Source of the DNA: Mobula hypostoma
Taxonomy: Eukaryota
Direction: 5' to 3'
Length of the DNA: 64,000 bases
Assembly: GCF_963921235.1 (NCBI RefSeq)
Contig: NC_086107.1
Location: forward strand, 110,858,001 to 110,922,000
The notes beneath the pieces are model-generated. The model was not told the origin of the DNA, did no database searches, and was given only the letters and a program-made list of their open reading frames with translations. Positions 400 to 63,519 of the stretch are shown piece by piece (the stretch's first letter is position 1; each line of letters opens with the position of its first letter). The translations under genes and the position numbers were made by a program.

Positions 400-600
400 T
401 GAAATCTTCTTATTCCCCTCCCTCCACCTTCTTATTCTGACTTCTTTCCCTGTCTTTTCCAGTCCTGATGAAGAGTCCGGGTCTGAAACGTTGACTGTTC
501 ATCCATTTCCATAGATTCTGTCTGACCCGCTGAGTTCCTCCAGCATGTTGTGTGCAAGCTCCTTAAGATTTCCGGCATCTGCAGAATCACTTGTGTTTAT
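400..600 (+). mobile_element. 3' end fragment of a Neptune-type Penelope-like element
   Basis: Same terminal sequence as 36400-36622 (cagtcctgatgaa...gaaacgttgactg...ctgagttcctccagc...catctgcagaatc). Confidence 0.75.
460..497 (+). ncRNA. Minimal type I hammerhead ribozyme motif (PLE-derived), stem II degenerate
   Basis: cagtc-CTGATGA-agagtccgggtct-GAAA-cgtt-gactg; stem I cagtc/gactg is perfect, cleavage triplet GUU. Confidence 0.6.
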
Positions 601-1974
601 GAAGTGAAATTTGTCGTTTTGCGGCATCAAGCTGTTCTCTGTCCTAAAGCAGGCCACTTGATCATTGCTAGCTTGCTATTTCTGACTTGATATGTATGAC
701 TGATGAAACCCTCTGAATCTGAGGTAATAACTTTCTCCCTCCATATGCGCTGCCCGACCTGCTGATTATTTCCAGCTTCTGCAGGTCTTTGCTCATTACA
801 GGATATACACCACTGAGCATAAAACACGTTGGACCACCAGGAGTGGCTGAGGTCAGGATTCAGTCAGTAAAAGGGTGTCTTTGCTTTCCAACGGTGAAGC
901 AACTTTCATGACCCTGACCAAACTCAGGTGCCTCACTGACGTGGTTGATGTTGTTTCTTGCTCAAGGTTAGCCTGGAGCTTAAACTGAGACACGGTAATT
1001 GACACACCTATTGACAGGAGTTCAGTGATGGCCCAAGTGTAGCTGGAAGGACATAGACATGGAATGAATGGTTGACAGGGCTTTCCTAAGAACTGTACCC
1101 AACTAAGAGAAAAAAATAAACGCTAGGCCGACCGGGCCGCAAACTGAAAATTCTCAAACTAACTAAAAACTAAGCTGTCACTGCGGCTCGAAAGCTATAG
1201 AGTCGTAGGATCATAGAAAAGTACAGCACAGAAACAGGTGCTTCGAGTTGTCTTGTCTGTGCCAACCTATTTATACTGCCTACTCCCATCAAACTGCACC
1301 AGGACCATAGTCCTCCATACCCCGACCATCCATGTACTTTTTCTTAAACGTTGAGATCAATCTCGCCTTCGCAGCTTGTTCCACACTCTCAGGACCCTCT
1401 GAGTGAAAAAGTTTCCCCTCATGTTCCCCTTAAACATTTCACCTTTCACCCTCGACCCATGACCTTTAGTTGTAGTCCTACCCAACCTCAGTGGAAAAAA
1501 TCTGATTGCAATTACCCTATCTATACCCCTCATAATTTTGAAACCTGGAACTAAATTAAATCTGCTCCTTGACCAGTGTCTAGCTAAATCATTAATTTTC
1601 TTTCCTGGAATGTGGAATAAGGTAATCAGGGAGCATTGTCATTGCTGTGCTTCTCAATGAAGACTTGACAAGACTGAAACAGAAAGAAGAGGGTTAAATA
1701 CAATTACAAAGAATCCCTAAATGGCTAGAATCCTCACAAGCGTGACTGCCATCTTCTTTCAGCTGCCCACGTGCGCGAGCAGCCAGACTCTGCGGCAGTG
1801 TCCACGGTTGTGACACCTATCACAGCAAGGCAGCTGAAACGTGACTGACATTCCTTTGTCGTTATCAAGACAGTGATTTCCTTGCCTCCATTTTGCTTCC
1901 TTCCTAAAGACAGTCTCGTCCTCAAGGCCTAATATATAATGGATGGGTCTGAAAAATATTTAAAGATTAGTTTA

Positions 1975-2455
1975 ATGAGGCCACCCTCAGGGTGGAAGAG
2001 CAATACCTCATATTCTGTCTGGGTACCCTCCAACCTGGTGGCATGAATATCGCTAATTCCGGTAAACAATATTCCCCCTTCCCTGCTTGTATTCCCCACT
2101 TTGACCTTTTACTTCTTTTCACCTGCCTAATACTTTTCCCTGGGTCCCCTCCTCCTTCCCCGTTTCTCCGATGGTCCACTCTCCTCTGCTATCAGATTCC
2201 TTCTTCTCCAGCCCCTGACCTTTCCCTCCCACCTGGCTTCACCCATCACCTTCCAGCTAGCCTCTTCCCCTCACCCCCCCAGTTTTTTATTCTGGCAACT
2301 TCCCGCTTCCTTCTCAGTCCTGATGATGAAGGGTCTGAGCCTGAAACATTGACTGTTTACTCTCTTCCATAGATTTTGCCCGACCTGCTGGGTTCCTCCA
2401 GCATTTTGTGTGTGCTGCTTTGGATTTCTAGCATCTGCAGTCTTTCTCATGCTTT
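1975..2455 (+). mobile_element. Neptune PLE 3' fragment (GIY-YIG C-terminus, 3' UTR and degenerate hammerhead at 2315-2355)
   Basis: EEQYLIFCLGTLQPGGMNI matches EEQHLIFRLGSLQPDGMNI of the 35-36 kb copy; cagtc-ctgatga...gaaa-catt-gactg. Confidence 0.8.
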
Positions 2456-2489
2456 TAAAAGAAAAAATTAGTTGTACAGTTATTTTAAT

Positions 2490-2722
2490 TTTATTTATTT
2501 AGAGGTACAGTGAGTGCAGACAGCAATCCACTAATTTAACACGAGACTGATCACAGGACAAGTTACAATGACAAATTAACCTACTGACCATTACCTCTTT
2601 GAACCATGCAGTCACAGGGAGAATATACAAACTCCTTACAGGTGACGTTGGAATTGAATTTCAAACTCCGACACCCCAAGCTGTAATAGCGTTGTGCTGA
2701 CCAATACACTACCGTGGCACCC
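2490..2722 (-). mobile_element. tRNA-derived V-SINE (HE1-like), internally deleted
   Basis: Reverse complement of the head ggggtgccacggtagtgtattggtcagcacaacgctattacagc...tgtaaggagtttg. Confidence 0.65.
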
Positions 2723-4312: not shown

Positions 4313-4677
4313 CTACTGGAGGCTAGCCAGGTGAAATATAAGGTGTTGGTTCTCCACCCACCTACCTTCCCCCTCACCTGGTTTCACCCATCGCCTTCCC
4401 TTCGCCCGTCTTCTTTTTACTGCTTCCCCTTTCCTTTCCAGTCCTGATGATGGGTCTCAGCTCAAAACATCGGCTCTTTATTCCTCTCCATGGATACTGC
4501 CTGACCTGCTGAATTCCTCTAGCATTTTGTGTGGGTTGATCTGGATATCCAGTATCTGCAGAATCTCTTGTGTTTTGGGTGTTGAAGTTGAACGTTATGT
4601 TGGACTCAGTGTCCAAGAACATCTTAAAAGATCTTAAAGATTAGCTTTATTTCTCACATGTACATCGAAACCTCACA

Positions 4678-8430: not shown

Positions 8431-8449
8431 TATAACAAAATTTAAAAAA

Positions 8450-8479: not shown

Positions 8480-9078
8480 GATGACTCATCGATGTTCTTC
8501 CAGTTTGGTCCCTCCATTGAGCAGCAGGCCTCAGTGATGCTGAACGTTATGGAAGAGTACGACTGGTACATTTTTTCCATTGTAACAAGTTATTTCCCTG
8601 GATACCAGGAGTTTATCAATAAGATCCGAAGCACCATCGAGAACAGTTTTGTTGGTTGGGAGATGGAGGAGGTCATGTCACTGGACATTTCGGTGGATGA
8701 TCGTGAGACCAAGATCCAAAACCAGCTGAAGAAGTTACAGAGCCCAGTCATCCTCTTGTTTTGCACTAAGGATGAGGCCACTTATATTTTTGAAGTGGCC
8801 GAGTCCGTTGGCCTGACGGGCTATGGTTATATCTGGATTGTGCCCAGCACGGTGACTGGGAATACAGACATCATTTTACCAGAGTTCCCGACGGGATTAA
8901 TTTCTGTTTCCTACGACGAATGGGATTACGGACTCCCGGCCAGGGTCAGGGACGGAGTTGCCATCATCACCACAGCGGCTTCAACCATGCTGGCCGAACA
9001 CAAGGAGATCATGGAACCCAAGACCAGTTGCTACAGCGTGCAGGAGAGGAGGGCTCACCAATCGAACACCTTGCACAG
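8480..9078 (+). CDS. GRIN2B: Internal coding exon of NMDA receptor subunit GluN2B (amino-terminal domain), equivalent to human residues D138-R337
   Basis: Reads [45 protein letters not shown]...[15 protein letters not shown]...SNTLHR. This is colinear with GluN2B and unlike GluN2A ([22 protein letters not shown]). Acceptor ttgtag|GAT at 8479/8480, donor CACAG|gtaagg at 9078/9079. The 599-bp length and phases 0/2 match the human c.412-1010 exon as I recall it. Confidence 0.97.
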
Positions 9079-9650
9079 GTAAGGCGTGATTCTGAATTTC
9101 TCACTGTTGACTTGCGAGACGGTGATGCAATTGACATGCATAGGATTCACTTTGGAAAACACAGGAGCACCCTGTGGACACACCTTCCTAAAATGTCTGC
9201 ATAAAAACGTATTAACCTTTCAAATTTCTGTATAGCTGTTTATTGGCTTGCATTGTGATTTGCTAATGGTCGCTCATTGACGCTAACCACGGTCTCGGGT
9301 CTGGCGGTGATGTGTAAAATTGGATGTAGTGACGCAGTGCGTGGAACCACAGACTATAACTGAACTATACCATAAAGTTTTTGTACCGTATCCTCTGGCT
9401 GTAATTGAACTGCGCCGTAAGGTTTGCTCCGGTGAGAAGGGTGCAATATTACAACCTGGGTCGTTCTTTGTAGAAGTGTGGCCGGCATTGCAATCCTGTT
9501 ATTGCCATCATTTCACTAGCATAAGGAAATACACAGCCTTGGAGACCTGCATTATGTTGGACCTGTTTACAGCCAATGCCACAAAATTTCATTCCCTCGA
9601 CTAGAACTTGCTGCATTAGCAGAAAAGGACGATGTACTGGGGGTAGGTGT

Positions 9651-10205: not shown

Positions 10206-10209
10206 TGGA

Positions 10210-17850: not shown

Positions 17851-18419
17851 CATAGGTTACTGCTGTTCAGCAAGGCACAGTGAAAATGCCCAATTGCTGG
17901 AGGCTCTACTGCGAGGAGACAGAGTCGAAACAATTTTTTTTTCCTCTGAGTTATGAGTTCTTGGCACTCTGCTCCTCAGAAGCTGTTAAAAGCAGAGCCT
18001 TCTATATGTTTAAGAGAGAGACTGATAGATTCTTGATAAGTAAGGGAGTGAGAGATTGGAGACATGCGAGACCTGCAGATGCTATAACCTGGAGCAAAAA
18101 GCAAACTGCTGGAAGAACTCAGCAGGTCAGGCAGCATCTGTGGAGGGAAATGGACAGTCCGTGTTTCAGGTCGAGGTTCTTCATCTGGACTAGAAGGTTC
18201 AAAGTAAGTTTATTATCAAGGTACATATATATCACCATATACAACCCTGAAATTTATTTTCTTGTGGGCATTCACAATAAATACAAAGAAACCCAATTGA
18301 ATCATTGAAAGACTACAAACAACCAATTTTCAAAAGACAACAAGCTGTGCAAATATAAAAAGAAAAATAATAGTAATAAATAAATAAGCCTTAAATACAA
18401 AGAACGTGAGATGAAGAGT

Positions 18420-20708: not shown

Positions 20709-20963
20709 AAGCCCGCACCTTCTCCGTGAGCTCTCTCGTGGTCTCCTGGCCTGACAGGAAAGCCCACACCTTCTCTGTAAGCTCTCCTGTGATCTCCTGG
20801 CCTGACAGGAAAGCCCACACCTTCTCCGTGAGCTCTCTCGTGGTCTCCTGGCCTGACAGGAAAGCCCACACCTTCTCTGTAAGCTCTCCTGTGATCTCCT
20901 GGCCTGACAGGAAAGCCCACCCCTTCTCCGTGAGCTCTCTCGTGGTCTTCTGACCTGACAGGG
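20709..20963. repeat. 51-bp minisatellite, 5 units in A-B-A-B-A order
   Basis: Units start at 20709, 20760, 20811, 20862, 20913; A has ccgtgagctctctcgtggtc, B has ctgtaagctctcctgtgatc. Confidence 0.95.
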
Positions 20964-21019
20964 AAGTCATAGCAAGCGTCTTCATTGAACATGAGTTTTT
21001 TAACATGAGTCTGTATCCA

Positions 21020-21490
21020 ATTCAACACACTCAAAATGCTGGAGGAACTCAGCAGGTCAGGCAGCATCTATAGAAATGAATAAACAGTTGTAGATTTGGG
21101 GTGAGACCCTTCTCCAGAACTGGAAAGGAAGGGGAAGGATGCCAGAATAAAAAGATGGGGGGAAGGGAAGGAGGCTGGCTGGAAGGTGGTAGGTGAAGCT
21201 AAGTGGGTGGGAAAGACTGGAGAAGGTAGGAGAGGAGAGTGGACCATAGGAAAAAGGGAAGGAGGAGGGCACCCAGGGGGAGGTGATAGGTAGGTGAGAA
21301 GAGGTAAGAGGGCAGAATAGAAGAAGAGGATGGGGGGAGGGAATTTTTTTTTAGCAGAAGGAGAAATCGATGTTCATACCATCAGGCTGGAGGCTGCCCA
21401 GACGGAATATAAGGTGTTGCTCCTCCACCCTGAGGGTGGCCTCACCTTGGCACAACAACTCATCTTGGACTGACCTGTTGGAACGGGAAT
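21020..21490 (-). mobile_element. Neptune PLE 3' fragment
   Basis: EATLRVEEQHLIFRLGSLQPDGMNIDFS in ORF 21351..21698, followed by the purine-rich UTR complement. Confidence 0.85.
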
Positions 21491-21861
21491 GTCTGTATCC
21501 AGTAAATGTCACCGTGACCTGGCATGAGTACAGAAAGCAAGACTCTGCTTTGAGTGGGCTACGAAGAGCAGCAGGGTCTCGGTGCACCAGGTCTGCTATT
21601 ACCTCAGCCCATGCCAACAGCCACGTGCCGGTTTCTGTCAGTCTGCTAGAGTTTATCTTGCTCCCTAAATCCAAAGAGAAATTGCTGCTGGGCATCAAAA
21701 GTCTCAGCCAGATGCAGCTTGTGAGAAGTTGAGTAACGGACAGAATTTGGAACAGTCCGCGGCTCCTGTGTTTACCAGCAATGCTTCAGTAATTATACAG
21801 CTCATCAAGCAGCACTAATGTCCAACGAATGCTGGAAGCACACAACGCGTGCTTTTATTAT

Positions 21862-22055
21862 AAACACAAGCGGTTCTGCAGATGTCGGAAATCCAGAGTA
21901 ACATGTACAAGATGCTGGAAAAACTCAGCAAGTCAGGCAGCATAAAAAAGTCGATGCTTGGGGCCGACGGCCAACAAAGAGTCTCGGCCTGAAGCGGGAG
22001 ACTCTTTATTGCTCTCTATAGACGTTGTCCGGCCTGCTGAGAGTTTCTCTGGCAT
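21862..22055. mobile_element. Short palindromic element built from two opposed PLE 3' ends
   Basis: aaacacaag...ctcagcaagtcaggcagcat...gggccgac then gtctcggcctgaa...ccggcctgctgag in the opposite orientation. Confidence 0.6.
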
Positions 22056-23629
22056 CTCTCTACTGTTTCTGCCTGTGTGTCTCTGTCTCTCTCACACACA
22101 TGTCCCTGATGCTCATAAGTTGTTGAACCTGCTCCAGTTAATGCAGCCTTAACCCCTCCTGCTGTTCCCAGCAATGATCTATTCCACCCTTGGCAACCTT
22201 TGCAGATGCTGGAAATCCAGGGCAACGCACACAAGATGTTGGAGCAACTCAGCAGGGTCAGACAGCATCTATGGAAATGAATAAGCAGTTGATATTTCAG
22301 GCCGAATCCCTTCATCGGGACTGGAAAGGGAGGGGGAGGGAGCCAGAATAAGAAGGTGGGGGGAGGTGAATAAGAAGATTCCACATCAGAAAAGGTGGTG
22401 CTGCATCACGGCCTGATATGGCGACAGCAACGCCCCAAAAAAGAAAAGCCTCGCAGTGGAGCTAGCCCAGTCCATCACAAGAAAAGCCCTCCCCACCATC
22501 GAGCACATCTGCATGGCGTGCTGCCACAGGAAAGCAGCATTCTTCATCAAAATTCCCGCATCATGGGCCATGCTCTCTTCTCGCTGCTGCCATCAGGAAG
22601 AAGGTCCCACACCACCAGGTTCACGAACAGTTATTATCCCTCAACCATCAGGCTCCTGAACCAGCACGGATGACTCACCTCAACACTGAACTGATACCAC
22701 AACTACAAGGTCACTTTCAAGGTCTCTACAACCCATGTTTTTGATATTGTTTATTTATTATTATTATTATTATTGTAATAATAATAGAATAATATTCAAG
22801 AACAGCCACCACCCCACAATCATCAGGCTCTTGAACAAAAGGGGATAACTACACTCCTTTGTCCATCCATTGAGACGTTTCCGGTGATCTCACGTTAAGG
22901 ACTCTTTATCGTCAGATGGTTCTGGGTTTATGGATTGGACTATTGTGTTTATGCACTGTGGACATTTTTCAGACTTACAGTTTTTATATTCTGCTGTTTT
23001 TTTTTAAAATCGCCCATTCCTTTTCCATTTTGTCGTGTGAGGGGAGGTTATTTGGGGATTGATGTTCTGTTAATTTTTGTGTTGGGGGAGTGGTTGTTTT
23101 TTGGGGGTTGATGTTTCTGTTCCATTTTGTGCGGGGAGGGTTTTTTTGGGGGCGGGTTGATTATTGGGATAACGTTCCTTTTTTCTATGATGGGGATGGG
23201 GTGGGTTTAATGTTTCTCTGTTCTGATCGACTTTCATGTTCTTTCTTTGTTTCATGGCTATCTGGAGAATGCAAATTTCAGAGTTGCATATGGTTACAAG
23301 CTTTGATAATAAATGAACCTTTGAACCTTTAAACCTTTATCTCATGCTCTTGTTATTTATTGCTATTTATTTATATTTGCATTTGCACAGTTTGTTGTCT
23401 TCTGCATTCCGGTTGATCTTTCATTGATCGTTAATCAATGAAAATTCTTTCTTTCTTTCTTTTTCAATCTTTTTATTAAACAATGAAAATTGAAAATAAT
23501 TACTATTTTATGGGTTTGCTGAGTATGCCCACAGGAAAATGAATCTTAGGGTTGTATATAGTGACATATATGTACTTTGATAATAAAATTTACTTTGAAC
23601 TTTGAACATTTTTGAACTTTGTATTTTTA

Positions 23630-25397: not shown

Positions 25398-26559
25398 ACC
25401 TTGTACGGAAGGCATGATATTCAAGAAAGTTAAAGTATCGCTACTAACTTCTATTTTCAGGAGGCACTGTGCTTTTGAAGGACAAGTTTAGAGATAAGGA
25501 GAACATATCAAACCCAGCTGTCCTCTCAGACCGAGAGAAAGAACGACTGTTGGTTAACTTGCTTCAGCAATTGCGTATAAAGACAGACATTTTTATAGTG
25601 CTTTCCAGGAGACAGAAGAAGATTAATGGTGTAAAAGAACAATTAACCCCTTGTTCTTTGATTAGAGTGATAGATCAACCTTGTTTTTGATATATGCAAC
25701 TGGATAGGATTGCAAGAAAGTCATTATCTATTAAGCTGCCATGTCAAAATGTAAAGAAAGCCAACTATTTAGAACAGTGTTTCTGTCTTAGATGATCCTT
25801 ATCTCTTGGGCTCTAAAACAGGGCAGAAAAAAGCAATGACACTATAGCAAACTTTAATAAGATCTCAGCTTAAGTAGTGTATATTGCATGCCAAGGTGAA
25901 AAAAGAACTTTAAGACATAAAGTTTAGCCTAACTTTTACAAGTCATAAACACAAGAGATTCTGCAGATGCAGGAAATCTGGAGTAACACAGAATTCTGGA
26001 GGAACTCAGCAGGTCAGGCAGCATCAATGGAGAGGAATAGACAGTTGGTGCTTCAGGCAGAAACCCTTCGTCATGACCCTCTCCATAGAAGCTGCCTGAC
26101 CTGCTGAGTCTCTCCAGCATTTTGTCGGAGGAACTTTCACAAGTTAGGTTCGTGGCCTGTACTGTGGTGCGGCGCTTAGGAGGACGCTATTATAGCTCGG
26201 GGCATCAGAGTTCAAAGTTCAATTCTGACATCATCTGTAAGGAGTCTGTATGTCCTCCCCATGGAATGCGTGGGTTTTCGCCAGGTGCTCTGGTTTTCTC
26301 CCACAGTCCAAAAACAATGTTATAATGACCAATTAACCTGCCAACCAGTACTTCTTTGGACTGTGGGAGGAAACCGGCACACCCAGGGGAAAACCCACAC
26401 ATTGCAAGGGGAGGACGTAGACTCTTTACAGATGGCAGAAGAATTGAACTCTAAGCTCTGATGCCCCGAGCTAACGGCTGCGTTACCATAGCACCCAAGC
26501 TGTTCCTAAAACGCTGAGCGTGACTCTCCAGGCTCCTGTACCTCCGCTCCAATGTGAAT

Positions 26560-34810: not shown

Positions 34811-36487
34811 ACTGAAGGAAGAGTGAGTAAGGGATTTGAAAGTTGGAGGGGGAGAGGGAGATCCAAAATGATAGGAGAAGACAGGAGGGGGAGGGATAGA
34901 GCCAAGAGCTGGACAGGTGACTGGCAAAAGGGGATACGAGAGGATCATGGGACAGGAGGTCCGGGAAGAAAGACAAGGGGGGCGGGTGACCCAGAGGATG
35001 GGCAAGAGGTATATTCAGAGGGACAGAGGGAGAAAAAGGAGAGTGAGAGAAAGAATGTGTGCATAAAAATGAGTAACAGATGGGGTACGAGGGGGAGGTG
35101 GGGCCTTAGCGGAAGTTAGAGAAGTCGATGTTCATGCCATCAGGTTGGAGGCTACCCAGACGGAATATAAGGTGTTGTTCCTCCAACCTGAGTGTGGCTT
35201 CATCTTTACAGTAGAGGAGGCCGTGGATAGACATGTCAGAATGGGAATGGGAATGGGATGTGGAATTAAAATGTGTGGCCACTGGGAGATCCTGCTTTCT
35301 CTGGCGGACAGAGCGTAGATGTTCAGCAAAGCGGTCTCCCAGTCTGCGTCGGGTCTCGCTAATATATAAAAGGCCACATCGGGAGCACCGCACGCACCCC
35401 AGTCGACTCACAGGTGAAGTGATGCCTCACCTGGAAGGACTGTTTGGGGCCCTGAATGGTGGTAAGGGAGGAAGTGTAAGGGCATGTGTAGCACTTGTTC
35501 CGCTTACACGGATAAGTGCCAGGAGGGAGATCAGTGGGGAGGGATGGGGGGGACGAATGGACAAGGGAGTTGTGTAGGGAGCGATCCCTGCGGAATGCAG
35601 AGAGAGGGGGGGAAGGAAAGATGTGCTTAGTGGTGGGATCCCGTTGGAGGTGGCGGAACTTACCGAGAATCATATGTTGGACCCGGAGGCTGGTGGGGTG
35701 GTAGGTGAGGACCAGGGGAACCCTATTCCTAGTGGGGTGGTGGGAGGATGGAGTGAGAGCAGATGTACGTGAAATGGGGGAGATGCGTTTAAGAGCAGAG
35801 TTGATAGTGGAGGAAGGGAAGCCCCTTTCTTTAAAAAAGGAAGACATCTCCCTCGTCCTAGAATGAAAAGCCTCATCCTGAAAGCAGATGAGACCCGACA
35901 CAGACTGGGAGACCGCTTTGCTGAACATCTACGCTCTGTCCGCCAGAGAGAGACCCGACGCAGACTGGGAGACCGCTTTGCTGAACATCTACACTCTGTC
36001 CGCCAGAGAAAGCAGGATCTCCCAGTGGCCACACATTTTAATTCCACATCCCATTCCCATTCTGACATGTCTATCCACGGCCTCCTCTACTGTAAAGATG
36101 AAGCCACACTCAGGTTGGAGGAACAACACCTTATATTCCGTCTGGGTAGCCTCCAACCTGATGGCATGAAAATTGACTTCTCTAACTTCTGCTAAGGCCC
36201 CACCTCTCCCTCGTACCCCATCTGTTACTCATTTTTATGCACACATTCTTTCTCTCACTCTCCTTTTTCTCCCTTTGTCCATCTGAATATACCTCTTGCC
36301 CATCCTCTGGGTCACCCCCTCCCGTCTTTCTTCCCGGACCTCCTGTCCCATGATCCTCCCGTATCCCCTTTTGCCTATCACCTGTCCAGCTCTCGGCTCT
36401 ATCCCTCCCCCTCCTGTCCTCTCCTATCATTTTGCATCTTCCCCTCCCCCTCCAGCTTTCAAATCCCTTACTCACTCTTCCTTCAGT

Positions 36488-36525
36488 TAGTCCTGACGAA
36501 GGGTCTCGGCCTGAAACGTCGACTG
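36488..36525 (+). ncRNA. Intact minimal type I hammerhead ribozyme motif (sense to GRIN2B)
   Basis: tagtc-CTGACGA-a-gggt/ctcg/gcct-GAAA-cGTC-gactg: full core, stem II, palindromic ACGT stem III; predicted cleavage after C36520. Confidence 0.85.
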
Positions 36526-39042
36526 CACCTCTTCCTACAGATGCTGCCTGACCTGCTGCGTTCACCAGCAACTTTGATGTATGTTGCTTGAATTTCCAGC
36601 ATCTGCAGAATTCCTGTTGTTTGTGTTGGGGCAAAGAGCTCGTTTCTTTGATGTATGGTTCTATGATTCTATTATAGGTGGAAAACAATGTACATCTGCT
36701 CCTGTTATCCCACATTATTGCAAATAGTTGATGATATATTTCTATTGCTTATAATTTGTAATCTGCAACAATAATTCATTGTCTGGACAAGTGAGAGTGA
36801 AAGGCTTAAATGGGTTTCTCTCTAAGCTGGTTAGTTGGCCTCTTTCAGTTCTACTTTTTTTTTGTGTTCTTGTTGCTGATTGGTGGGCTGGGGGTTTGGG
36901 GTTTTGTGTTCTTGTTGTTGTTTTTCCATGTGGGTGATCTCTTAGTTTTTGTGCAGGGGGGAGAGTTGTGGGGGTGGTTTGGTTTCCGCGAGTTTTTGTT
37001 TCTCTTTCTTTTTGTGCAGCGGGGTGAGATTGACATCTTTCTTTCAACTACTTCTATGGTTTTTTATATCCTGTGGCTATCTGGAGAAGACAGATCTCAG
37101 GGTTGTATTCTGCATATACACCGTGATAATAAATGAACCTTTGAACCTCTGGTGTTGCATTAATGGGCTGTGTGGAAATATGTATTGACCTTTGTGTTTT
37201 TTGTATCCATTTGATGTAACAAAATGGAGTAGACAATCCCAGAGTACTAAGCTAATATGTTGCAATATATGTATGTGGTGACAGGAAAAGTGCGTACTAA
37301 AGGAATACGTGACTGCAAGCACCTGATGTACTGAACGTTGTGCAAGAATAAAGAAGCAGCAGAGATGAGTCAACTGCAACAGCAGATTACAACAAATGTA
37401 TTGGAAGGACTGAGCCTGCTGGAAATAGTAACCATGTCTCGTTTTTATGTCTAGAAAGAACACTTTGTAAACAGTGTGTAAGGGGATTAGAGGTGAACTT
37501 TCCACTTGAAAGTAATAAAGAGGCATGATAAAGACCCACTCAGTGTAGGTATTGTGTTCTTGTGACTCCTAGCGGAGAAACATTCAACAGTTGCCCAGCT
37601 TTAAATTTTTTTTTCCCATTGCCTTTAATGTGCAAATCCTACCATTTCAAACCTACAGGGAAGCCCAGGGTTAGTTAGTTAAGGCCCATAAACCCTACTG
37701 GAGCATAGGCTATCAACAGTAGCTCATCAGAGTCCTCTGTCTGGGCCAGTCTTTCACAATGTCTCCTAGTGGAGCCCATCTTTTTGGTTTTCCTTCCGCT
37801 ACCCAGGGATGAAGTCTTTAGAGTTTCTGTTGGTGTTTCTGTAGCACCGGGTCTTTACAGGATAAGACTGGTAGCCTCACGCCCAAATCTCTTCATTCCA
37901 CAGCCGGGATCGGGGCTGTCCATGGTGGGGTTAACCCCAGGCTGAGATCAGGGTTTTGGAGGAGTCTGGACAGGCAAGTTTCTTGAGCACAAACACAAGA
38001 GATTTTGCAGATGTTGGAAATCCAGAGCAACAGACACACAATGCTGCAGGAGCTCAGCAGGCCAGGCAGCATCCACGGAAAGGAATAAATAGTCCTGTTG
38101 ATGTGTCTCAGGCCAAAACCAACTGTTTATTCCTCTCCACTGTCACAGACGATGCCTTTGGATATGATTAACTGAGAGACTGTTATCTCTTTCAGCTTGT
38201 GGTAAAGAACTCTTAGTAATAACAGTGAATTCTTCACAGTTAGCCTGGCCAATTTTGATCTCTGAGCCAATGCCGCCACATCAAAACCGGTTCCAGTTCG
38301 TGGGACATTGTAAAAATATGGTTAGAAAACGATGTGTTGTCATCAATCAGTGATGCAAAGCAAATGGCGTGGGAGATCGGATCAGTGCAGACGCGGCAGC
38401 CCGCAGTAGCCACAAGCCCACTCACCAGAGTTTCCTGGCAAAACTCTGAGCCTCTGGGTTGTTCCCGCACTGATCCGGCTTCATTGGGCTGGTGGCTATG
38501 GGCAGGATTCCCCTGGTTGTCATGGGAACGCTGAATTTCTTGTCAGCTTGTTTGATCTTGCTGTGTGAGAGTTGTGGCCTTCCTGAGACGGCTGTGGCAG
38601 TGGAGTTGGTCACAGCATTCAGTCTTTTATGGTGGGACCTCCTTCCACACACATTGGTCACAGCTTATCCCAAGTCAAATAAGAGATGGGGGAATATTTG
38701 ACTGTAGCTTTGGGAGACCATGGCACCAACCAACAACAAGGGTGGCATGCCAGTGAAGTGGTTAGCGTAATGCTATTATAGTGTTGGTAACCCAGGTTCA
38801 GTTCCCGCCCCTGCCTTTAAGGAGTTTATATGTTCTCCCTGTGACCATGAGTGTTTCCTCCAGGTGCTCTGGTTTCCTCCCACAGTTCATAGATGTATCA
38901 ATTGGTAGGTTAGTTGGTCACATGGGTGTAATTAGACAGCGGGTGTTCATTGGGCCCATCTCATTACTCTGGTGTATTTCTAAAATAAATAACATTCTTG
39001 TGATCAATATCAAAATGTGCTTCTGTTATGGATCATTGGATA

Positions 39043-52420: not shown

Positions 52421-53462
52421 GGCATTTACTAGAATCTCTCCAGTGAGGAATGATTTCATGATGTTGGACTTGAAAAGCTGGTATTGAGAGATACAGGAAC
52501 ATACTTATAGGATAAGCAGAGGAGAGAGATGGAACAGCAGATGCTGGACACAATCTATTGGAGGAACTCGGTGGGCCAAACAGTGTCAGTGGTGGGAAAG
52601 GAATACTCAACATTTTGGGTCAAAACCCTGTATCAGGACTGAGAATGGAGGGGGGAAATTCTCCAGTCTTGGCAATCCATTTGCTAACGTCTCATCACCA
52701 TATGAGGAGACATCATCAGTGCACTGTTCACTTGTGGTGTGTCCTCCTAATGCTTGGCCTTTATATACTTGGCAATCAGCTGGATGGTTGTCATTAAGGA
52801 AACTCAGTTGTGACATAGGGAGAGGGTCTCATTTGTTGGTTGGTTGTGTGGCAGATTTTATGCGTTGTGGTCTGGAATTTTGCCTGCATGGGCTTATAAA
52901 TAGAATCAAGGTCAACAACGCAACTCAGAGAACAAGTCAACCAAACCATCAACCACCCAAGCCACACACTTTCCCAGTAATTTCCATGGCCAGGAGAACG
53001 AGGAGAGGGTTGAGACAGGAGCTCAAGGTGACTGGAGGGCTAGACAATGATGCGCAGGGGACACACTGGTAAGGGGACAGATGGAATTGGGACGCAAGTG
53101 TGTGATGGGTGGAGGCAGAGGACAAAAAGGGAGATGGACTTCGAGGATGGTGGAAGGCAGGAGAGAGGAGAGTGAAGGTGGAGACAGAGGGCGATAAGCA
53201 GGAACACAAAACAGAGAGAAGCCGCTTTCAATCGCGGATGCTTCACGATCTGAAACTGATAAGGTTATTTATTAATCATATGCGCATTGGAACATACCAA
53301 TTAACATTGCACTGCATTAACAACCAATGTAGTCTGAGGTCGTGCCGGGTGACACAGCCCACATGTGTCGCTACACGCTCCAGTGCCAAGGTAGCATGCC
53401 CACGATGTGCAGAACGACAACAGCAAAATGAACCCGCTCCCATCCAGCCACCCCCCATCCTC

Positions 53463-54375
<913 letters not shown>

Positions 54376-55307
54376 GTCCTATCAAATATCCCATGACGAG
54401 GGCTACAAACACACAAGATCCTGCAGACGCGGGAAATCTTAAGCAACATGCATAAAATGCTAGGGGAACTCAGAAAGTCAAACAGTATCTATGGAATGGC
54501 CTGATAAAGGGTATTGGCCCAAAATGTCTACTGTTTACTCCTCTCCATGGACGCCGCCTGGCCTGCTGAGTTCCTCCAGCACTTTGTGGGTGCCGCCTGT
54601 TTCAGCTTAATGGCTTTAATCGGAACTGACTGGACCTTAATAAATATAGAAACCATTGTAAGTTTGGTTGAAGTACGTGAGCCACACACACAGAGTGCAG
54701 GAGGAACTCAGCAGGTCAGGCAGAGTCAGTGCAGAGGAACAAACAATGGATGCGTCAGGCTGAGCCTCCAAGTGGGCCACAACCTTGTCGTGGTTCAATG
54801 ACCCAGAGAGCTCTGTTGGTTTTGCTCTTGGTAGGGTCACACATGCCAAACAGGTCAGAGGGCAGAGGGCAGAGGCCAGACTAAGAGTGGTTCATCTGTC
54901 CTCCAGGTTTGGGGTTCAGCTCAGGGCTAACAACCCTGACTGGTAAAACAAAACTGTTATGGAAACAGCAATGAGGAATCCCCCTATGCCTGTGTGTGAC
55001 GGTGTGGCCAGTCAGAGATGGAGGGTCTGCTTTGCTGCCCTAAATGGCAGAGGTGTAATGGGCAGTAAGTACATTTTCAGACTGAGCTAGGAGAAATTCG
55101 AATAGGAAATGAGGAAATTGCAATGAAGAATCCTTCTACATCTGAGTGTGATGGTATTCCTGAGTCTCCACCCAGGACTTGCATGACTGACAGTAGTGAA
55201 AACCAAGAGGAAGTCACTGACATGATGAAGAAAGCTCTGAACACCGCCAGAGATGGAGGACCTTCATTGCTGCCCTAAACGCCAGCAGCGTGATGGACCG
55301 TACGTAA

Positions 55308-55445
55308 GTTTCAGGTCGAGACCCTTCATCAGGTCTCGACCTGAAACATTGACTGTTGCTCACCATCGATCCTCCCTGACCTGCTGAGTTCCTCCAGCAT
55401 TTTGTGTGTGTTCCTCATGACTTCCAGCATCTGACAAACCTCTTG
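55308..55445. mobile_element. PLE end with fold-back fusion inside the hammerhead core
   Basis: Perfect 16-bp inverted repeat gtttcaggtcgagacc (55308-55323) / ggtctcgacctgaaac (55332-55347), followed by the standard PLE terminal sequence. Confidence 0.7.
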
Positions 55446-58970: not shown

Positions 58971-60336
58971 TAATTTACCATGAAAGTTCAGCTAATTGGG
59001 GCAACTGCATAACTGGGTCGAAATGTACTGGTTCCGATGTGTCCCAATTAACTGGAATCTACTATATTTGTAAACTAATAAATATAAAACACATCTATCA
59101 AATCAGGTCTCATCCTCCCTCGCTCCAAAGAGAAAAGTCTTTGCTCATTCAACCAATCCACATAAGACATGTTCTCTAATCCAGGTAGCATCCTGGTAAA
59201 TTTCAGCAGGCCGGGCAGCATCTATGGAGAGGAATAAATAGGTGCTTCATCAAGACCTATTTACTCATTTCCATAGATGCTGCCTGACCTGCCAAGTTCC
59301 TCCAGCATTTTGTGTGTGTTGCTCTGGATTTCCAGCATCTGCAAAATCTCTTGTGTTTAAGCTGGTAAATCTCTGCTGCACCCTCTCTGAAGTTTTCACA
59401 TCCTTCCTATAATGAGGTGCCCACTGAGAGTGTCTTGACTAGCCACATCACCACGTCTGGTACAGGAATTGCAAGACATCTGACCGCAAGAACCCACAAA
59501 ATACTGTGAGAACCGCTGAGAGGAACATCTGGGCATCTCTTCCATTCTTCTGCGATATTTATCAGGAGCGCCGCATATGTAGGACCCTTAGCATTATCAA
59601 GGATCTGACCCATCTGTCCAACAATCTCTTTGACCCCCTACCATCAGGCAAGAGGTACAGTAGCATTCAGAACAAGGACTGTTAGGATGGAAAACTGCTT
59701 CTTCCCCCAGGCCATGAGATGACTGAACTCCCTGCCACCACCCAGCCCTCATAATGTGTGAAGGGCCAGTGCCATTATAGTGATTACTTTTTAACTTGCA
59801 TCGTAAATATACCTTATACTAAATATCAATCTTATTATTTGTTAATTTATTTGTGGTAATATTACTTTATGTGTTGTGTGTATGAGTCACATGTACTATG
59901 CTGTGTACCTTGGTCTGGAGGAGCATTCATTCGTAAGGCCAGTGATGTTGTGGGGATGGAACTGGACTCTCTGACGGTGGTGTCTGAAAAGAGGATGCTG
60001 TCTAAGTTGCATGCCATCTTGGACAATGTCTCCCATCCACTACATAATGTACTGGTTGGGCACAGGAGTACATTCAGCCAGAGACTCATTCCACCGAGAT
60101 GCAACACAGAGCGTCATAGGAAGTCATTCCTGCCTGTGGCCATCAAACTTTACAACTCCTCTCTTGGAGGGTCAGACACCCTGAGCTAATAGGCTGGTCC
60201 TGGACTTATTTCCTGGCATAATTTACATATTACTATTTAACTATTTATGGTTTTATTACTATTTATTATTTATGGTGCAACTGTAATGAAAACCAATTTC
60301 CCCCGAGATCAATAAAGTATGACTATGACTATGACT

Positions 60337-60545: not shown

Positions 60546-61149
60546 CAACACAAGGTATAGGGTGATCTTGAACTGAACACATGACACTAAGTGTTACCAT
60601 GCTGGGTGGCTGCCCCCAGTTTATCAGTGTCTTTGTTATACTGTCTCCTCCCAAGCCTTGACAAGCTGCCTCGAGCCCCTGAGTGGCTTCCAGTCCCTGC
60701 TGTATTGACACTGCTTCTTGGCCCGAACAGTGCAGCTGCTTGGGCTTGGCTCTAGCCAGTCGCGGAGCCGTGCGCACATAGACACATGAAGCCAGTCAGC
60801 AGCAGCGTCAGAGCTGCCGGACTGCTGGCAACTGATAATGAGGCCGAAGCCTGAATTTCATTCTGACCAGTCGCACGGTTTTGTTGCTATTTGGTGCTCA
60901 GTTACAGTACGCCCTGTGTCCAATCTCTTCATCAGATGGGCGCCCCAGCTGCGTAGCGGTTAGGTCATTCGTACTATCGAGTCTGCTCTCCCGTTTGGTC
61001 ATGGCTGATTTATTTTCCCTCTCAGTCTCATTCTCCAGCCTTCTCCCTGTAACCTTTTGATGCCCTTCCTAATTTAAATGTACTAATTAAGCATACTTTG
61101 AATCTTTGAATTAAGAACCTATCAATTTCTGCTTTAAGTATAAAGGTGA

Positions 61150-61500
61150 GACAATCTGCGAATGCTGGGAATCAAAGCAACACACACAAAACGCTGGAGG
61201 AACTCAGCAGGCCAGGCAGCATCCATGGAAAAGAGCACAGTCGATGTTTTGGGCTGAGATCCTTCTTCAGGCCTCCAAATTCAGTTAATGTTGGGGAGGG
61301 GAGACTTGATGGCCTCAATCTCCTTAGGAGGTGGAGGCGCTGCTGTGCTTTCTTGTTCAGGGAGGTGATATTGGAGAATCAGGCGAGGTCATCCACGTTT
61401 GTGAACTCCTGATGAAGGGTCTCGGCCCGAAACAGCGACTGCTCTGTCCCATTGATGCTGCCTGAACTGCTGAGCTCCTCCAGCATCTTGTGTGTGTTGT
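61150..61500. mobile_element. Palindromic PLE-end element with about 135 bp of LINE-like filler between two opposed hammerhead motifs
   Basis: Minus motif at about 61238-61271; plus motif CTGATGA-a-gggt-ctcg-gccc-GAAA-cagc-gactg at 61409-61441; inverted arms acacacaaaacgctggaggaactcagcag / ctgctgagctcctccagcatcttgtgtgt. Confidence 0.7.
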
Positions 61501-61950
61501 CTGCTTTAAACACACCCAGTGGCGTTGTCTCCACAGCACCTGCGGCAATGGGCACCATGGCAGTGCAGCGCTGTTACTGGTCGGGGTGTTGGAGTTCGGA
61601 GTTCAGCTCTGACATCGCCTGCGAGGAGTCTGTACGCGGAATGCGTGGATTTCCTCCGGACGCTGCGGTTTCCTCCCACAGTCCAAAGACATGCCGGTTA
61701 GTAGGTTAATTGGAAGTTGTAAATTGTCCCGTGATCAGGCTGGGGTGAAGTCGGGGATTGCTGCAGGGGCACGGCTCGATGGGCCTATTCCGCACTGTAT
61801 CTCAATAAATAAGTAAATAACTAACATGTTGTTTACAAGCCTGGGCTTTTATCTATTCATGTATCGCTATAATCTGTTTTCCAAGTTGACCAATTTAATT
61901 CAGATGATAAAGCATTGTCATGATTAAAGTAACACCTATTTTAATGATAG

Positions 61951-62241
61951 TGTGGTGCGTGGCCAAGTGGTTAGGGCGTTGGGCTCACGATCTGAAGGTC
62001 ATGGGTTCGAGTCTCGGCCAAGGCAGCGTGTTGTGTCTTTGAGCAAGGCACTTAACCACACAGTGCTACAGTCCACCCAGCTGAAAAGGGGTACTGGCAA
62101 ATGCTGGGGGTTAACCTCGCGATAGACTGGCGTCCTATCCGGGGGGGGGAGGAGTCTCGTACTCTCAGTCGCTTCACGCCACAGAAACCGGCATAAGCAC
62201 CGGCCTGATGGGCCACTAAGGCTCGGGACAGACATTAACTT
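61951..62241 (+). mobile_element. tRNA-derived SINE, type A tail
   Basis: Homologous to 9651-9925; A tail and approximate TSD attttaat(g/a)ata. Confidence 0.85.
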
Positions 62242-63519
62242 AAAAAAAATTTTAATAATATGTTCCTGTGGAAGAGCGTGCAGTATGTTTATTGAAGCTG
62301 CTGTTTTGTCCTCCCGATTGAATTATTGATACATCTCACGGCCTCAGTATGTTTACTGATCTTAGTGATGAGAAAACGGGGTTCAAAGCAACACACACAA
62401 AATGCTGGAGACCTCAGCAGGTCAGGCAGCATCTGTGGAAATGAATAGATAGTTGATGTTTTGGGCCGAGACACTTCTTCAGAACTGAGAAGGAAGGGGG
62501 AAGATGCCAGAATGAAAAGATGGGGTGGAGGGGAAGGAGGCTATACTTTACACTTTATTGTCGCCAAACAGTTAGTACTAGAACGTACATTCATCACAGC
62601 GATATTTGAATCTGCGCTTCACACTCCCTGGATTACAAATATTAAATATTAAAAATATTTAAAATAGTTAAAATTAGTAAATATTAAAAATTTAAATTAT
62701 AAATCATAAATAGAAAATAGAAAAATGGGAAGTAAGGTAGTGCAAAAAAACTGAGAGGCAGGTCCGGATATTTGGAGGGTACGGCCCAGATCCAGGTCAG
62801 GATCCGTTCAGCAGTCTTATCACAGTTGGGAAGAAGCTGGTCCCAAATCTGGCGATCTGGAAGGTGATAGGTGAACTGAAGTAGGTGGGAAAGGTCAAGG
62901 GCAGGAGAGGATCTGATAGGAGAGGAGAGTGGACTATGGGAGAAAGGGAAGGAGGAGGGGACCCAGGGGGAAGTGACAGGCAGATGAGAAGGAGTAAAAG
63001 GTCAGAATGGGGAATAAAGGGAGTTCAATTCCCGCCGCTGACTATAAGGAGTTTGGACGAACTCCCTGTGACCATGTGAATTTCCTTCCGGAGCACCAGT
63101 TTCCTCCCATATTCCAAAGATGTACAGGTTAGTATTTGTAAGTTGTCGTGAAGCTATTTTGGTACCGGCAGCATGACCACACTTGTAGGCTGCCGCCCAG
63201 CACATCCTCGGACTGTATTGGCTACTGACACAAAACAATGCATTTCACTGTGTGTTTCGATGTACGTGTGACAAATATAGCTCATCTTTATTCCTCAACG
63301 TATGGGATAACCACAAAGAGGAGAAAGGAACTTAGCTCAGGAAATCAAAAAGTGGAAACCTAAGCTGTCTAAAGTCCCCATACTGTAATAGTAATGTAAT
63401 GCATTGTATAGATGAATTACTGCGAGTTTACCTATATGTGGACGGAGTAAAACAAAGGAGCAATAATATTATGGAAGGGGAATTCATGGAGTGCATCCAA
63501 TAGATTTTTAGAACAACTT

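What the first reader, a model, noticed from the sequence alone, without database searches (positions are those of the whole stretch)
460..62488. Dispersed array of PLE-derived minimal hammerhead ribozyme motifs on both strands of GRIN2B introns
Seen: the motif cagtc-CTGA(T/C)GA-a-gggt-ctcg-gccy-GAAA-CGTC-gactg or decayed versions recurs about 15 times. Plus strand: 460, 2315, 4439, 28438, 36488, 61409. Minus strand: about 18155, 21085, 22286, 26042, 34082, 34773, 52605, 55308, 61238, 62450. Established: PLEs carry minimal type I hammerheads whose loopless palindromic stem III (here ACGT) favours cleavage as dimers; an extra A between A9 and G10.1 is tolerated in natural hammerheads. Inference: several sense copies share one pre-mRNA, so they could pair in cis as dimeric hammerheads and cut the intron co-transcriptionally, influencing processing of a neuronal transcript. 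Most copies have core mutations and are probably dead.
Basis: partly seen in the sequence, partly recalled or inferred. Interest (0 to 1): 0.72.

Follow-up and report, generated by a model that had tools for sequence, protein, structure and literature searches.

The report
Dead retroelement hammerheads in GRIN2B introns
The repeated motif is real, but it is the known small "dimer-type" hammerhead ribozyme carried at the tail of a very abundant Penelope-like retroelement, scattered through this stingray-type GRIN2B gene at the ordinary genome-wide density and mostly decayed, so it is an ordinary leftover with no sign of a role in the gene.

Summary
Observation confirmed. The motif is far above chance: 6 matches against 0.19 expected.

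The repeat is the 3' tail of a Penelope-like element (PLE). Sister copies carry a reverse transcriptase and a GIY-YIG endonuclease. The motif has every published feature of the PLE minimal hammerhead (PMC4209133).

The host gene is GRIN2B on the + strand.

There is no support for the functional idea:
- Only 3 of 18 motif-bearing copies in the window are structurally complete. The two sense ones lie in different introns.
- The best sense copy pairs over all 38 bases with an inverted sister copy 1.7 kb away.
- Modelled dimers prefer an inactive duplex.
- Density equals the genome average: 3 observed, 2.96 expected.
- There is no strand bias in number or integrity over 254 kb of the gene.
- Decay is mainly CpG loss.

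Cleavage itself could not be tested.

The scan has met PLE-type minimal hammerheads before in other genomes. The only unusual point is the load: at least 160,760 motif copies in 3.48 Gb.

The parts
8480..9082 (+). GRIN2B (GluN2B) coding exon, amino-terminal domain, residues about 137-337. It sets the + strand as the sense strand.
   Evidence: Pfam ANF_receptor E 9.8e-11. PDB phmmer: GluN2B 2e-109 against GluN2A 3e-83. 100% identity to P0001, named GluN2B-like. tblastn 137-336 at 8480-9079.
421..630 (+). PLE tail copy, sense, in the upstream intron. Hammerhead at 460-497: core intact, ACGT palindrome, H17=T, helix II weakened (3 of 4 positions paired, all wobble).
   Evidence: nhmmer E 1.4e-48; per-position scoring; passes the descriptor.
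2276..2471 (+). PLE tail copy, sense, preceded by an endonuclease C-terminal remnant (1971-2372). The hammerhead starts at 2315. It has a 3-nt TGA insertion in the core region and ACAT in place of ACGT.
   Evidence: fails the descriptor.
4406..4614 (+). PLE tail copy, sense. Hammerhead at 4439-4476 with G12 changed to A; dead.
18050..18207 (-). PLE tail copy, antisense. Hammerhead at about 18155-18192 with 3 core changes.
20947..21161 (-). PLE tail copy, antisense. Hammerhead at about 21085-21122 with 4 core changes. The endonuclease remnant 21351-21785 (-) lies upstream.
21837..22056 (.). Abutting head-to-head pair of tail fragments: 21967-21837 (-) and 21974-22056 (+). The junction lies inside the hammerhead, and both motifs are partial.
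22145..22362 (-). PLE tail copy, antisense. Hammerhead at about 22286-22323 with U4 changed to C.
25907..26125 (.). Tail copy 26089-25907 (-), hammerhead at about 26042-26079 with 3 core changes. A short inverted arm, 26078-26125 (+), abuts its 5' end.
28248..28612 (+). Two tail copies in direct tandem, sense. In 28248-28398 the 5' half of the hammerhead is deleted. In 28430-28612 the hammerhead at 28438-28475 has 3 core changes.
33947..34152 (-). PLE tail copy, antisense. Hammerhead at about 34082-34119 with 4 core changes.
34635..35928 (-). Left arm of an inverted PLE pair, antisense to the gene. It holds endonuclease-domain ORF remnants (35106-35426 and 35359-35928) and a tail with the hammerhead at 34773-34810. 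The core is intact; position 1.1 is A instead of G.
   Evidence: blastn 95.4% over 505 nt to the right arm. ORFs. 97% identity over 72 aa to the GIY-YIG-bearing ORF of L012..
35773..36652 (+). Right arm of the inverted pair, sense. It holds an endonuclease C-terminal remnant (35773-36195) and a tail with the only perfect hammerhead, 36488-36525. The predicted cleavage site is between 36520 and 36521. The repeat ends at about 36627.
   Evidence: The 3' boundary comes from contig loose ends at 36624-36627 and from no cover on 36646-36815.
37979..38156 (.). Head-to-head pair: 38120-37979 (-) and 38089-38156 (+). The + arm carries a hammerhead with 3 core changes. The junction runs through helix I.
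52548..52667 (-). PLE tail fragment, antisense. Hammerhead at about 52606-52643 with 3 core changes.
54404..54766 (.). Three-armed cluster of tail copies (-, +, -) next to a (CA)n array. The + arm, 54488-54669, carries a hammerhead with 2 core changes.
55307..55445 (.). Fold-back: 55346-55307 (-) holds the 5' two thirds of the hammerhead and is joined to 55332-55445 (+), which starts in helix II.
59202..59370 (.). Head-to-head tail fragments, 59241-59202 (-) and 59257-59370 (+). Most of the hammerhead is missing.
61102..61299 (-). PLE tail copy, antisense. Hammerhead at about 61238-61275 with G12 changed to A.
61392..61539 (+). PLE tail copy, sense. Hammerhead at 61404-61441 with U16.1 changed to G (ACAGC) and helix I at 3 of 5 pairs.
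62320..62525 (-). PLE tail copy, antisense. Hammerhead at about 62450-62487 with G12 changed to A.

Best explanation
The motifs are the terminal module (hammerhead plus a tail of about 110 nt) of a very abundant Penelope-like retroelement. The element encodes a reverse transcriptase followed by a GIY-YIG endonuclease. Copies were inserted at random, in both orientations, into the long introns of the GRIN2B gene of a stingray-type genome. Most are 5'-truncated, and many have the abutting inverted partner copy typical of PLE insertions. In the element's own life cycle the minimal hammerhead is thought to help process tandem element transcripts. It would do so as a dimer, probably with help from the element's protein; this step is inferred from the literature and not shown here. 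Once inserted, the copies decay neutrally, chiefly by CpG loss, which removes G8, G12 and the ACGU palindrome. In the GRIN2B pre-mRNA they are inert passengers. Antisense copies cannot form the ribozyme. Most sense copies are mutated. The few intact sense copies lack a nearby intact partner and sit next to complementary inverted copies that would hold them in double-stranded RNA.
For: Shown here.
(1) One repeat family: 28 profile hits at E<1e-3 in the window and 70 in 264 kb.
(2) PLE identity. ORF remnants upstream of the motif in window copies are 97% identical to an ORF of a sister copy with GIY-YIG (PF01541, 19.9 bits); another sister copy scores 22.1 bits against a cut-off of 22.6. That ORF is contiguous with an RT ORF, which is 94% identical to a 745-aa ORF with RVT_1 at 24.6 bits.
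(3) PLE-type architecture: 14 abutting head-to-head pairs against 2 tail-to-tail, binomial p 0.004, and the 502-bp inverted pair.
(4) Motif features match the published PLE minimal hammerhead: 5-bp helix I, an extra nucleotide after A9, 4-bp helix II, loopless ACGU.
(5) Ordinary density. The genome holds 48,862 exact and 160,760 three-mismatch copies, with 0 in the control. That predicts 0.90 and 2.96 per 64 kb; the window has 1 and 3.
(6) No strand bias: 28 + against 35 - in 254 kb of gene body (p 0.45). Intact copies are 4 of 15 on + and 6 of 23 on - (Fisher p 1.0).
(7) Decay pattern: CpG columns are 0.60-0.66 conserved, against 0.87-0.92 for non-CpG hammerhead columns.
(8) Sequestration: all 38 nt of 36488-36525 pair with 34773-34810, and a 121-nt duplex scores -252.5 kcal/mol.
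(9) Folding: the monomer MFE is an inactive rod (-11.0 against -7.0 for the hammerhead-like fold). The dimer MFE is -30.3 against -11.5 for the double hammerhead, and the probability of the helix III pairs is 0.0000.
From papers: low in vitro activity even as dimers or trimers (PMC4209133, text read). The Anolis PLE hammerhead is inactive without the element's protein, and no RNA-seq ends were found at its site (PMC11167929, passages).
Against: Cleavage was not measured. All runs found were assembled contigs of uncertain kind, and contigs cannot show RNA ends. The energy model ignores tertiary contacts and proteins, so it cannot rule out a protein-assisted active fold. The family looks young: there are 48,862 perfect 33-mers and long open ORFs in sister copies. 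The element's protein may therefore be available in some cells. Non-CpG core columns are somewhat better kept than the tail (0.915 against 0.816). I attribute this to selection in the source elements, but it could also reflect constraint after insertion. Strand statistics cover one gene only. The Pfam scores for RVT_1 and GIY-YIG lie just below the curated cut-offs.
Confidence: 0.9

Rival explanations
1. One reading: sense copies in one pre-mRNA pair in cis as dimeric hammerheads and cut the GRIN2B intron during transcription, which affects processing of the transcript.
For: Two window copies on the sense strand pass a full minimal-hammerhead descriptor: 460 and 36488. Their helix I strands and ACGU palindromes are mutually compatible on paper. 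In the 171-kb intron a second perfect sense copy lies 78 kb downstream, at ext 114955, in L019. Dimer-dependent cleavage is documented for related motifs (PMC4209133; PMC7229834, passages).
Against: The two window copies are 36 kb apart and in different introns, and the 460 copy has a crippled helix II. Both perfect sense copies of the long intron have an inverted partner beside them, 1.7 kb and 45 nt away. The double hammerhead is 19 kcal/mol worse than the inactive dimer. There is no enrichment and no strand bias. Published activity of this class is low even for adjacent tandem copies.
Confidence: 0.03
2. Part of the short copies are not truncated autonomous PLEs. They are short non-autonomous units (hammerhead plus tail, about 150 nt), of the retrozyme or SINE-like kind, mobilised by the PLE machinery.
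For: Of 70 profile hits, 36 start at profile positions 25-58, in or next to the hammerhead (positions 40-77), and 8 start exactly at positions 38-40. A direct tandem of two tail units lies at 28248-28612. A 2026 preprint argues that animal non-LTR retrozymes derive from PLE terminal repeats (10.64898/2026.07.22.740005; abstract and Results part 1).
Against: The apparent 5' starts may be an artefact of subfamilies that share the hammerhead and tail but differ upstream. Twenty contigs of run X1 diverge exactly at 36489 into another upstream flank. No tandem arrays of the unit occur in the window. Copies with upstream ORF remnants show that truncated autonomous elements are certainly present.
Confidence: 0.15
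3. The relevant feature is not the ribozyme. The inverted PLE pairs would form long RNA hairpins in the pre-mRNA and could attract editing or silencing, or promote back-splicing.
For: A 502-bp inverted repeat of 95% identity lies 875 bp apart and is predicted to be fully paired. There are 14 abutting head-to-head pairs in 264 kb.
Against: No expression, editing or small-RNA data were obtained. Such pairs are a general by-product of PLE insertion (PMC8557442, passages) and occur genome-wide.
Confidence: 0.05
4. Chance resemblance to the hammerhead core in a repeat unrelated to ribozymes.
For: No Rfam hammerhead model matches: not at gathering score, not at E<=10 over the window, and not on the 131-nt stretch around the best copy. 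Covariation is thin: one helix I pair has a double change, in 2 of 43 copies.
Against: All 13 invariant core positions (C3, U4, G5, A6, G8, A9, G12, A13, A14, A15.1, U16.1, plus H17 and the free N7), both helices, the extra nucleotide after A9 and the palindrome occur together in a PLE terminal region. This is exactly the published arrangement. The descriptor finds 0 in the controls. Rfam models require a helix III stem-loop, which this class lacks by design.
Confidence: 0.01

Closest known systems
Minimal hammerheads (min-HHR) in the pseudo-LTRs of metazoan Penelope-like elements (Cervera and De la Pena 2014, PMC4209133; text parts 1-2 read)
   Same: Type I topology. Helix I of 4-5 bp. An unpaired nucleotide between A9 and 10.1. 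A G at 10.1 paired with C or U. No helix III loop, with a palindromic 15.2-16.2. Located in the terminal repeat of an RT plus GIY-YIG element. Mostly single dispersed copies from truncated elements, with some close pairs on opposite strands. [quoted passage not shown]
   Different: Nothing in kind. Helix II is 4 bp here, whereas 7-8 bp is described for the Schistosoma families. Most intact copies have a G-U pair at 10.1-11.1 and C at position 7, which allows an inactive GACG/CGUC pairing. The copy number is far higher than the 4,000 and 9,000 quoted there.
Protein-assisted hammerhead of the Anolis Poseidon element PAc (PMC11167929; passages read)
   Same: A PLE hammerhead in the terminal repeat of a vertebrate element. 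It gives a tail signature at the 3' end of insertions.
   Different: In PAc the motif overlaps the ORF start, and cleavage was shown in vitro, only with the protein. No cleavage data exist for the present family.
Non-LTR retrozymes and amphibian satellite hammerheads (PMC7229834, passages; preprint 10.64898/2026.07.22.740005, abstract and Results part 1)
   Same: Type I hammerheads of vertebrates that work better as dimers and are related to PLE terminal repeats.
   Different: Those are tandem arrays of 150-450 bp units with a short helix III stem-loop, and they are expressed as circular RNAs. Here the copies are dispersed, loopless and mostly single or inverted.
[quoted passage not shown]
   Different: Those are single-copy, conserved between species and active as monomers. 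The present motifs are multi-copy transposon remains, mostly mutated and dimer-dependent.

Membership tests
Hammerhead ribozyme, minimal type I variant of PLEs | Invariant core: C3 U4 G5 A6 N7 G8 A9, G12 A13 A14, A15.1-U16.1, H17 not G | tested here: met
   Met in 4 of 18 motif-bearing window copies (421, 2276, 34848, 36449). The other 14 have 1-4 core changes. In 264 kb, 17 of 42 scored copies have no core change.
Hammerhead ribozyme, minimal type I variant of PLEs | Helices I and II flank the core, with the ends open at helix I (type I) | tested here: met
   In the best copy, helix I is 5 of 5 and helix II is 4 of 4. Over all copies, 27-39 of about 43 form Watson-Crick pairs at the four inner helix I positions, and 26-43 of about 54 at three of the four helix II positions; the fourth is mostly a wobble pair.
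Hammerhead ribozyme, minimal type I variant of PLEs | No helix III loop; palindromic 15.1-16.1 (ACGU), so that helix III forms only between two copies | tested here: met
   ACGT is present in 421, 34848 and 36449. It has decayed to ACAT, ATGT and the like in most others.
Hammerhead ribozyme, minimal type I variant of PLEs | An unpaired nucleotide between A9 and G10.1 | tested here: met
   A in 16 of 18 window copies and T in 2.
Hammerhead ribozyme, minimal type I variant of PLEs | Compensatory changes that support the helices | tested here: inconclusive
   One helix I pair shows a double change (C-G to T-A) in 2 of 43 copies. Most variation is one-sided CpG decay.
Hammerhead ribozyme, minimal type I variant of PLEs | Self-cleavage 3' of H17 | not testable with these tools
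   No raw RNA reads were available. Contigs cannot show ends.
Rfam hammerhead families (curated covariance models) | Match to a curated model | tested here: not met
   No hammerhead hit at gathering score, at E<=10 over 64 kb, or at E<=10 on 36440-36570. This is expected for a class without a helix III stem-loop.
Penelope-like element (EN+ PLE) | Reverse transcriptase domain | tested here: met
   RVT_1 E 2.4e-5, 24.6 bits (below the cut-off of 29.6), in the 745-aa ORF of sister copy L011. It is linked by 94% identity to the RT ORF of L012. The window itself holds only C-terminal remnants.
Penelope-like element (EN+ PLE) | GIY-YIG endonuclease C-terminal to the RT | tested here: met
   PF01541 E 1.9e-4, 22.1 bits (cut-off 22.6), in L009; 20.5 bits in L007; 19.9 bits in L012. 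The window ORF 35359-35928 (-) is 97% identical over 72 aa to the L012 ORF. The window ORFs alone gave no Pfam hit at E<=0.01.
Penelope-like element (EN+ PLE) | 5' truncation, partial tandems and an adjacent inverted 5'-truncated copy | tested here: met
   14 abutting head-to-head pairs against 2 tail-to-tail. Inverted pair 34710-35213 / 36088-36590. Direct tandem 28248-28612. The arrangement is described in PMC8557442 (passages).
Penelope-like element (EN+ PLE) | Hammerhead motif in the terminal repeat | tested here: met
   The motif lies about 290 nt after the end of the endonuclease ORF remnant and about 100 nt before the 3' end of the repeat.
Functional intronic ribozyme of a host gene (CPEB3 type) | Single conserved copy, active as a monomer, under selection in the host gene | tested here: not met
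   The motif is multi-copy at genome-average density, shows no strand bias and decays at CpGs. Conservation between species could not be tested.

The most novel reading that the evidence does not exclude
The family is young and enormous: at least 160,760 motif copies, 48,862 of them perfect. Thousands of intact sense copies must therefore sit in introns across this genome. If the element's protein, or a host chaperone, lets even a small share of them cleave, this species would carry a transcriptome-wide layer of ribozyme cuts in pre-mRNAs, GRIN2B included, at sites such as 36520|36521.
Probability: 0.04. Interest if true: 0.6.

Novelty: already known. Interest (0 to 1): 0.12.

Why it matters
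As it stands the finding matters little. It is a correct recognition of a published class of transposon-borne minimal hammerheads, present here as decaying passengers in a long neuronal gene. Two points have some value.

First, the load is very high. The motif occurs about 46 times per Mb, roughly ten times the density I calculate for the 126,247 hammerheads reported in axolotl (PMC7229834 passages; genome size from the 2026 preprint). This genome would be a good place to ask whether PLE hammerheads ever cleave in vivo.

Second, most copies sit in inverted pairs whose junctions lie in or next to the hammerhead. This bears on how PLE insertions are made.

Tried and rejected
- **Fuzzy regex search:** a search for the 38-nt motif timed out. 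I replaced it with blastn and nhmmer.
- **Rfam:** no hammerhead family matched at any threshold. The sub-threshold hits (miRNA-like, twister-P1 at 27.1 bits against a cut-off of 67.2, tRNA-like) are taken as chance or repeat-derived.
- **Pfam on window ORF remnants:** no GIY-YIG hit at E<=0.01. The domain was found only in better-preserved sister copies.
- **Protein searches:** The search for homologous proteins with the endonuclease ORF gave 5 unnamed or unrelated-named relatives, carrying RVT_1, DUF8422 or HTH_animal. The protein atlas gave RVT_1/DUF8422/HTH_animal clusters at score 0.96. Both are leads only, and neither names the element.
- **RNA evidence:** no RNA holder was listed. Runs X1, X2 and X15 are contigs of guessed kind. 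Thousands of contigs cover 36000-36645 and several bridge the predicted cleavage site, but contigs cannot show RNA ends or strands. The table of molecule ends was empty.
- **Upstream fetch:** The upstream part of the gene was therefore not examined.
- **Earlier notes:** there are none on this genome.
- **Literature:** a search for Penelope + stingray + transposable returned 0 papers. A search for Penelope, cartilaginous, retrotransposon and genome size returned nothing specific among the 10 listed. I therefore cannot say whether this particular family has been described. Supplementary figures of PMC4209133, which hold the motif alignments, were not opened.
- **5' ends at the cleavage site:** I considered whether 5' ends of copies mark the ribozyme cleavage site, between profile positions 72 and 73. 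Only 3 of 70 hits start at positions 71-75, and these junctions are explained equally well by the self-complementarity of helix I.

Full report
**Observation**

The pattern CTGAYGA-N13-GAAACGTC occurs 6 times with up to 2 mismatches. The expectation is 0.19, and none of 100 dinucleotide shuffles reaches 6. A blastn of the best copy with 400-nt flanks against the window showed that the motif is part of a longer repeat. An alignment of 16 copies showed conserved sequence on both sides of the motif.

A profile of that alignment was built from 15 of the 16 rows; one chimeric row was dropped. With nhmmer it finds 32 hits at E<=10. Of these, 28 have E<1e-3: 13 on the + strand and 15 on the - strand.

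Eighteen of the 28 hits carry the hammerhead columns (8 on +, 10 on -). The other 10 are fragments.

**Host gene**

The open frame 8480-9082 (+) matches Pfam ANF_receptor. Among solved structures it matches GluN2B at E 2e-109, against 3e-83 or weaker for GluN2A. It is 100% identical to a 1452-aa protein that its source names GluN2B-like of Hemitrygon akajei.

I ran tblastn with that protein on the window plus the next 200 kb of the same contig. The following exon lies 171 kb downstream and the last exon ends at 254 kb, all on the + strand. The whole window apart from one exon is therefore GRIN2B intron, and + copies are sense.

**What the repeat is**

Upstream of the motif, the longer window copies carry ORF remnants with a GIY-YIG-like sequence. 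Pfam did not recognise these at E<=0.01.

Better-preserved sister copies were fetched from the same genome:
- GIY-YIG (PF01541) scores 22.1, 20.5 and 19.9 bits against a cut-off of 22.6.
- A 745-aa ORF carries RVT_1 at 24.6 bits against a cut-off of 29.6.
- The RT ORF and the endonuclease ORF belong to one element (94% identity).
- The window ORF 35359-35928 (-) is 97% identical to that endonuclease ORF over 72 aa.

RT followed by GIY-YIG is the architecture of endonuclease-bearing Penelope-like elements. The motif sits about 290 nt after the ORF remnant and about 100 nt before the 3' end of the repeat. That 3' end is placed at about 36627 by the loose ends of many contigs.

The insertion architecture is also that of PLEs. 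In 264 kb there are 14 abutting head-to-head pairs against 2 tail-to-tail, p 0.004. There is also a 502-bp inverted pair at 34710-35213 / 36088-36590 with 95% identity. This is the arrangement described by Craig et al. (PMC8557442, passages).

**The motif as a hammerhead**

The best copy, 36488-36525, reads as follows:
- helix I, 5 bp
- the core CUGACGA
- an extra A
- helix II, 4 bp, with a CUCG loop
- GAA
- then ACGU with no loop
- C17
- the 3' strand of helix I

Cervera and De la Pena (PMC4209133) describe exactly this for metazoan PLEs. [quoted passage not shown] They report thousands of copies per genome, mostly single and from truncated elements, with some close pairs on opposite strands.

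No Rfam hammerhead model matches, even on a 131-nt stretch at E<=10. This is expected, because those models contain a helix III stem-loop.

A descriptor of my own that encodes the published features finds three complete motifs: 460 (+), 36488 (+) and 34773 (-). It finds none in the reversed sequence and none in 50 shuffles.

**State of the copies**

In the window, 4 of 18 copies have no change in invariant positions. One of these four (2276) has a 3-nt insertion and a broken palindrome.

Columns that were CpG are only 0.60-0.66 conserved, against 0.87-0.92 for the other hammerhead columns. CpG loss accounts for the common lesions: G12 to A, G8 to A, ACGU to ACAU or AUGU, and G1.1 to A. Non-CpG core columns are a little better kept than the tail (0.915 against 0.816). 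I read this as selection in the source elements.

Covariation is thin: one double change, in 2 of 43 copies.

**Is the gene special?**

The genome (3.476 Gb) holds 48,862 exact copies of the 33-nt motif and 160,760 within 3 mismatches. The reversed control gives none. That predicts 0.90 and 2.96 per 64 kb. The window has 1 and 3.

Over 254 kb of gene body:
- There are 28 sense and 35 antisense profile hits (p 0.45).
- Of 38 copies with complete motif columns, 15 are sense and 23 antisense.
- Structurally intact copies are 4 of 15 sense and 6 of 23 antisense, Fisher p 1.0.

**Could sense copies cut the intron?**

- The two complete sense copies of the window lie in different introns, 36 kb apart. 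The one at 460 has a helix II of wobble pairs and a mismatch.
- The long intron has two perfect sense copies 78 kb apart: 36488 and ext 114955.
- Each of these has an inverted partner beside it. In a fold of the two arms, all 38 nt of 36488-36525 pair with 34773-34810, and a 121-nt stretch of the duplex scores -252.5 kcal/mol.
- Even an isolated pair is predicted to prefer an extended inactive duplex (-30.3 kcal/mol) over the double hammerhead (-11.5).
- The monomer prefers a rod in which G5-G8 pair with 15.2-17.

These energies ignore tertiary contacts and proteins.

The literature points the same way:
- Activity is low even for tandem dimers and trimers, and mostly at unphysiological magnesium (PMC4209133).
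- The Anolis PLE hammerhead does not cleave without the element's protein. No RNA-seq ends were found at its site, and core mutants have no effect on insertion in vitro (PMC11167929, passages).
- Xenopus retrozymes are depleted from introns relative to intergenic DNA (2026 preprint, Results part 1).

**What could not be done**

Laid on 36000-37000, thousands of contigs cover the repeat and none covers the unique flank 36646-36815. This fixes the repeat boundary but says nothing about cleavage. The upstream 200 kb of the gene could not be fetched.

**Verdict**

The proposed action on the GRIN2B transcript has no support and several points against it. The kind is already known, and the scan has met it before in other genomes.

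The only unusual aspect is quantitative: about 46 motif copies per Mb. That is roughly ten times the density I calculate for axolotl from published numbers.

Noticed in passing
whole genome G000: The genome carries at least 48,862 perfect and 160,760 near-perfect (up to 3 mismatches) copies of this 33-nt hammerhead, about 46 per Mb. The highest count in the papers I read is 126,247 in the much larger axolotl genome, about 4.5 per Mb by my arithmetic.
   Followed up: partly
window 21837-22056, 25907-26125, 37979-38156, 54404-54766, 55307-55445, 59202-59370; also seven pairs (six abutting) in L014-L033: Short fold-back units: two tail copies head to head, with the junction in or next to the hammerhead (profile positions 30-85). 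In one case the junction runs exactly through the self-complementary helix I. This looks like snap-back or template switching at the 5' end of the element RNA.
   Followed up: partly
window 36488-36525: With C at position 7, the monomer is predicted to fold into a rod in which GACG (positions 5-8) pairs with CGUC (15.2-17). This fold scores -11.0 kcal/mol, against -7.0 for the hammerhead-like fold. It may help explain the low activity of this class.
   Followed up: partly
window 36489 (loose ends): Twenty contigs of one run match the repeat from 36489 onward but continue upstream into a different flank. Several subfamilies therefore share the hammerhead-plus-tail module and differ just upstream of it.
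   Followed up: partly
window 53463-54375: A 913-bp (CA)n array lies directly beside the three-armed PLE cluster at 54404-54766. PLE-type elements are reported to favour microsatellites as insertion targets (PMC8557442, passages).
   Followed up: no
window 35890-36009: A 60-nt direct duplication (2 copies, 96% match) lies inside the endonuclease-coding remnant, near the inner end of the inverted pair.
   Followed up: no
window 3899-4383 (-), 1357-1638 (-), 7137-7424 (-), 29441-29722 (-), 48747-49103 (+), 51846-52124 (+): Remnants of another retroelement family: a weak RVT_1 hit (18.7 bits) and recurring C-terminal ORF pieces. These are probably LINE 3' ends unrelated to the PLE.
   Followed up: no
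window 47609-47671 (+), 61957-62025 (+): Two sub-threshold tRNA-like matches (22.7 bits against a cut-off of 29). Similar ORF-like sequence lies at 47602-47916 and 58095-58400. This may be a tRNA-derived SINE.
   Followed up: no
window 10154-10208 (-): A weak twister-P1 match: 27.1 bits against a cut-off of 67.2, E 0.14. It is most likely chance.
   Followed up: no
window 20708-20966, 16149-16268, 25263-25397, 46711-46822: Minisatellites with periods of 51/102, 30, 45 and 28 nt.
   Followed up: no
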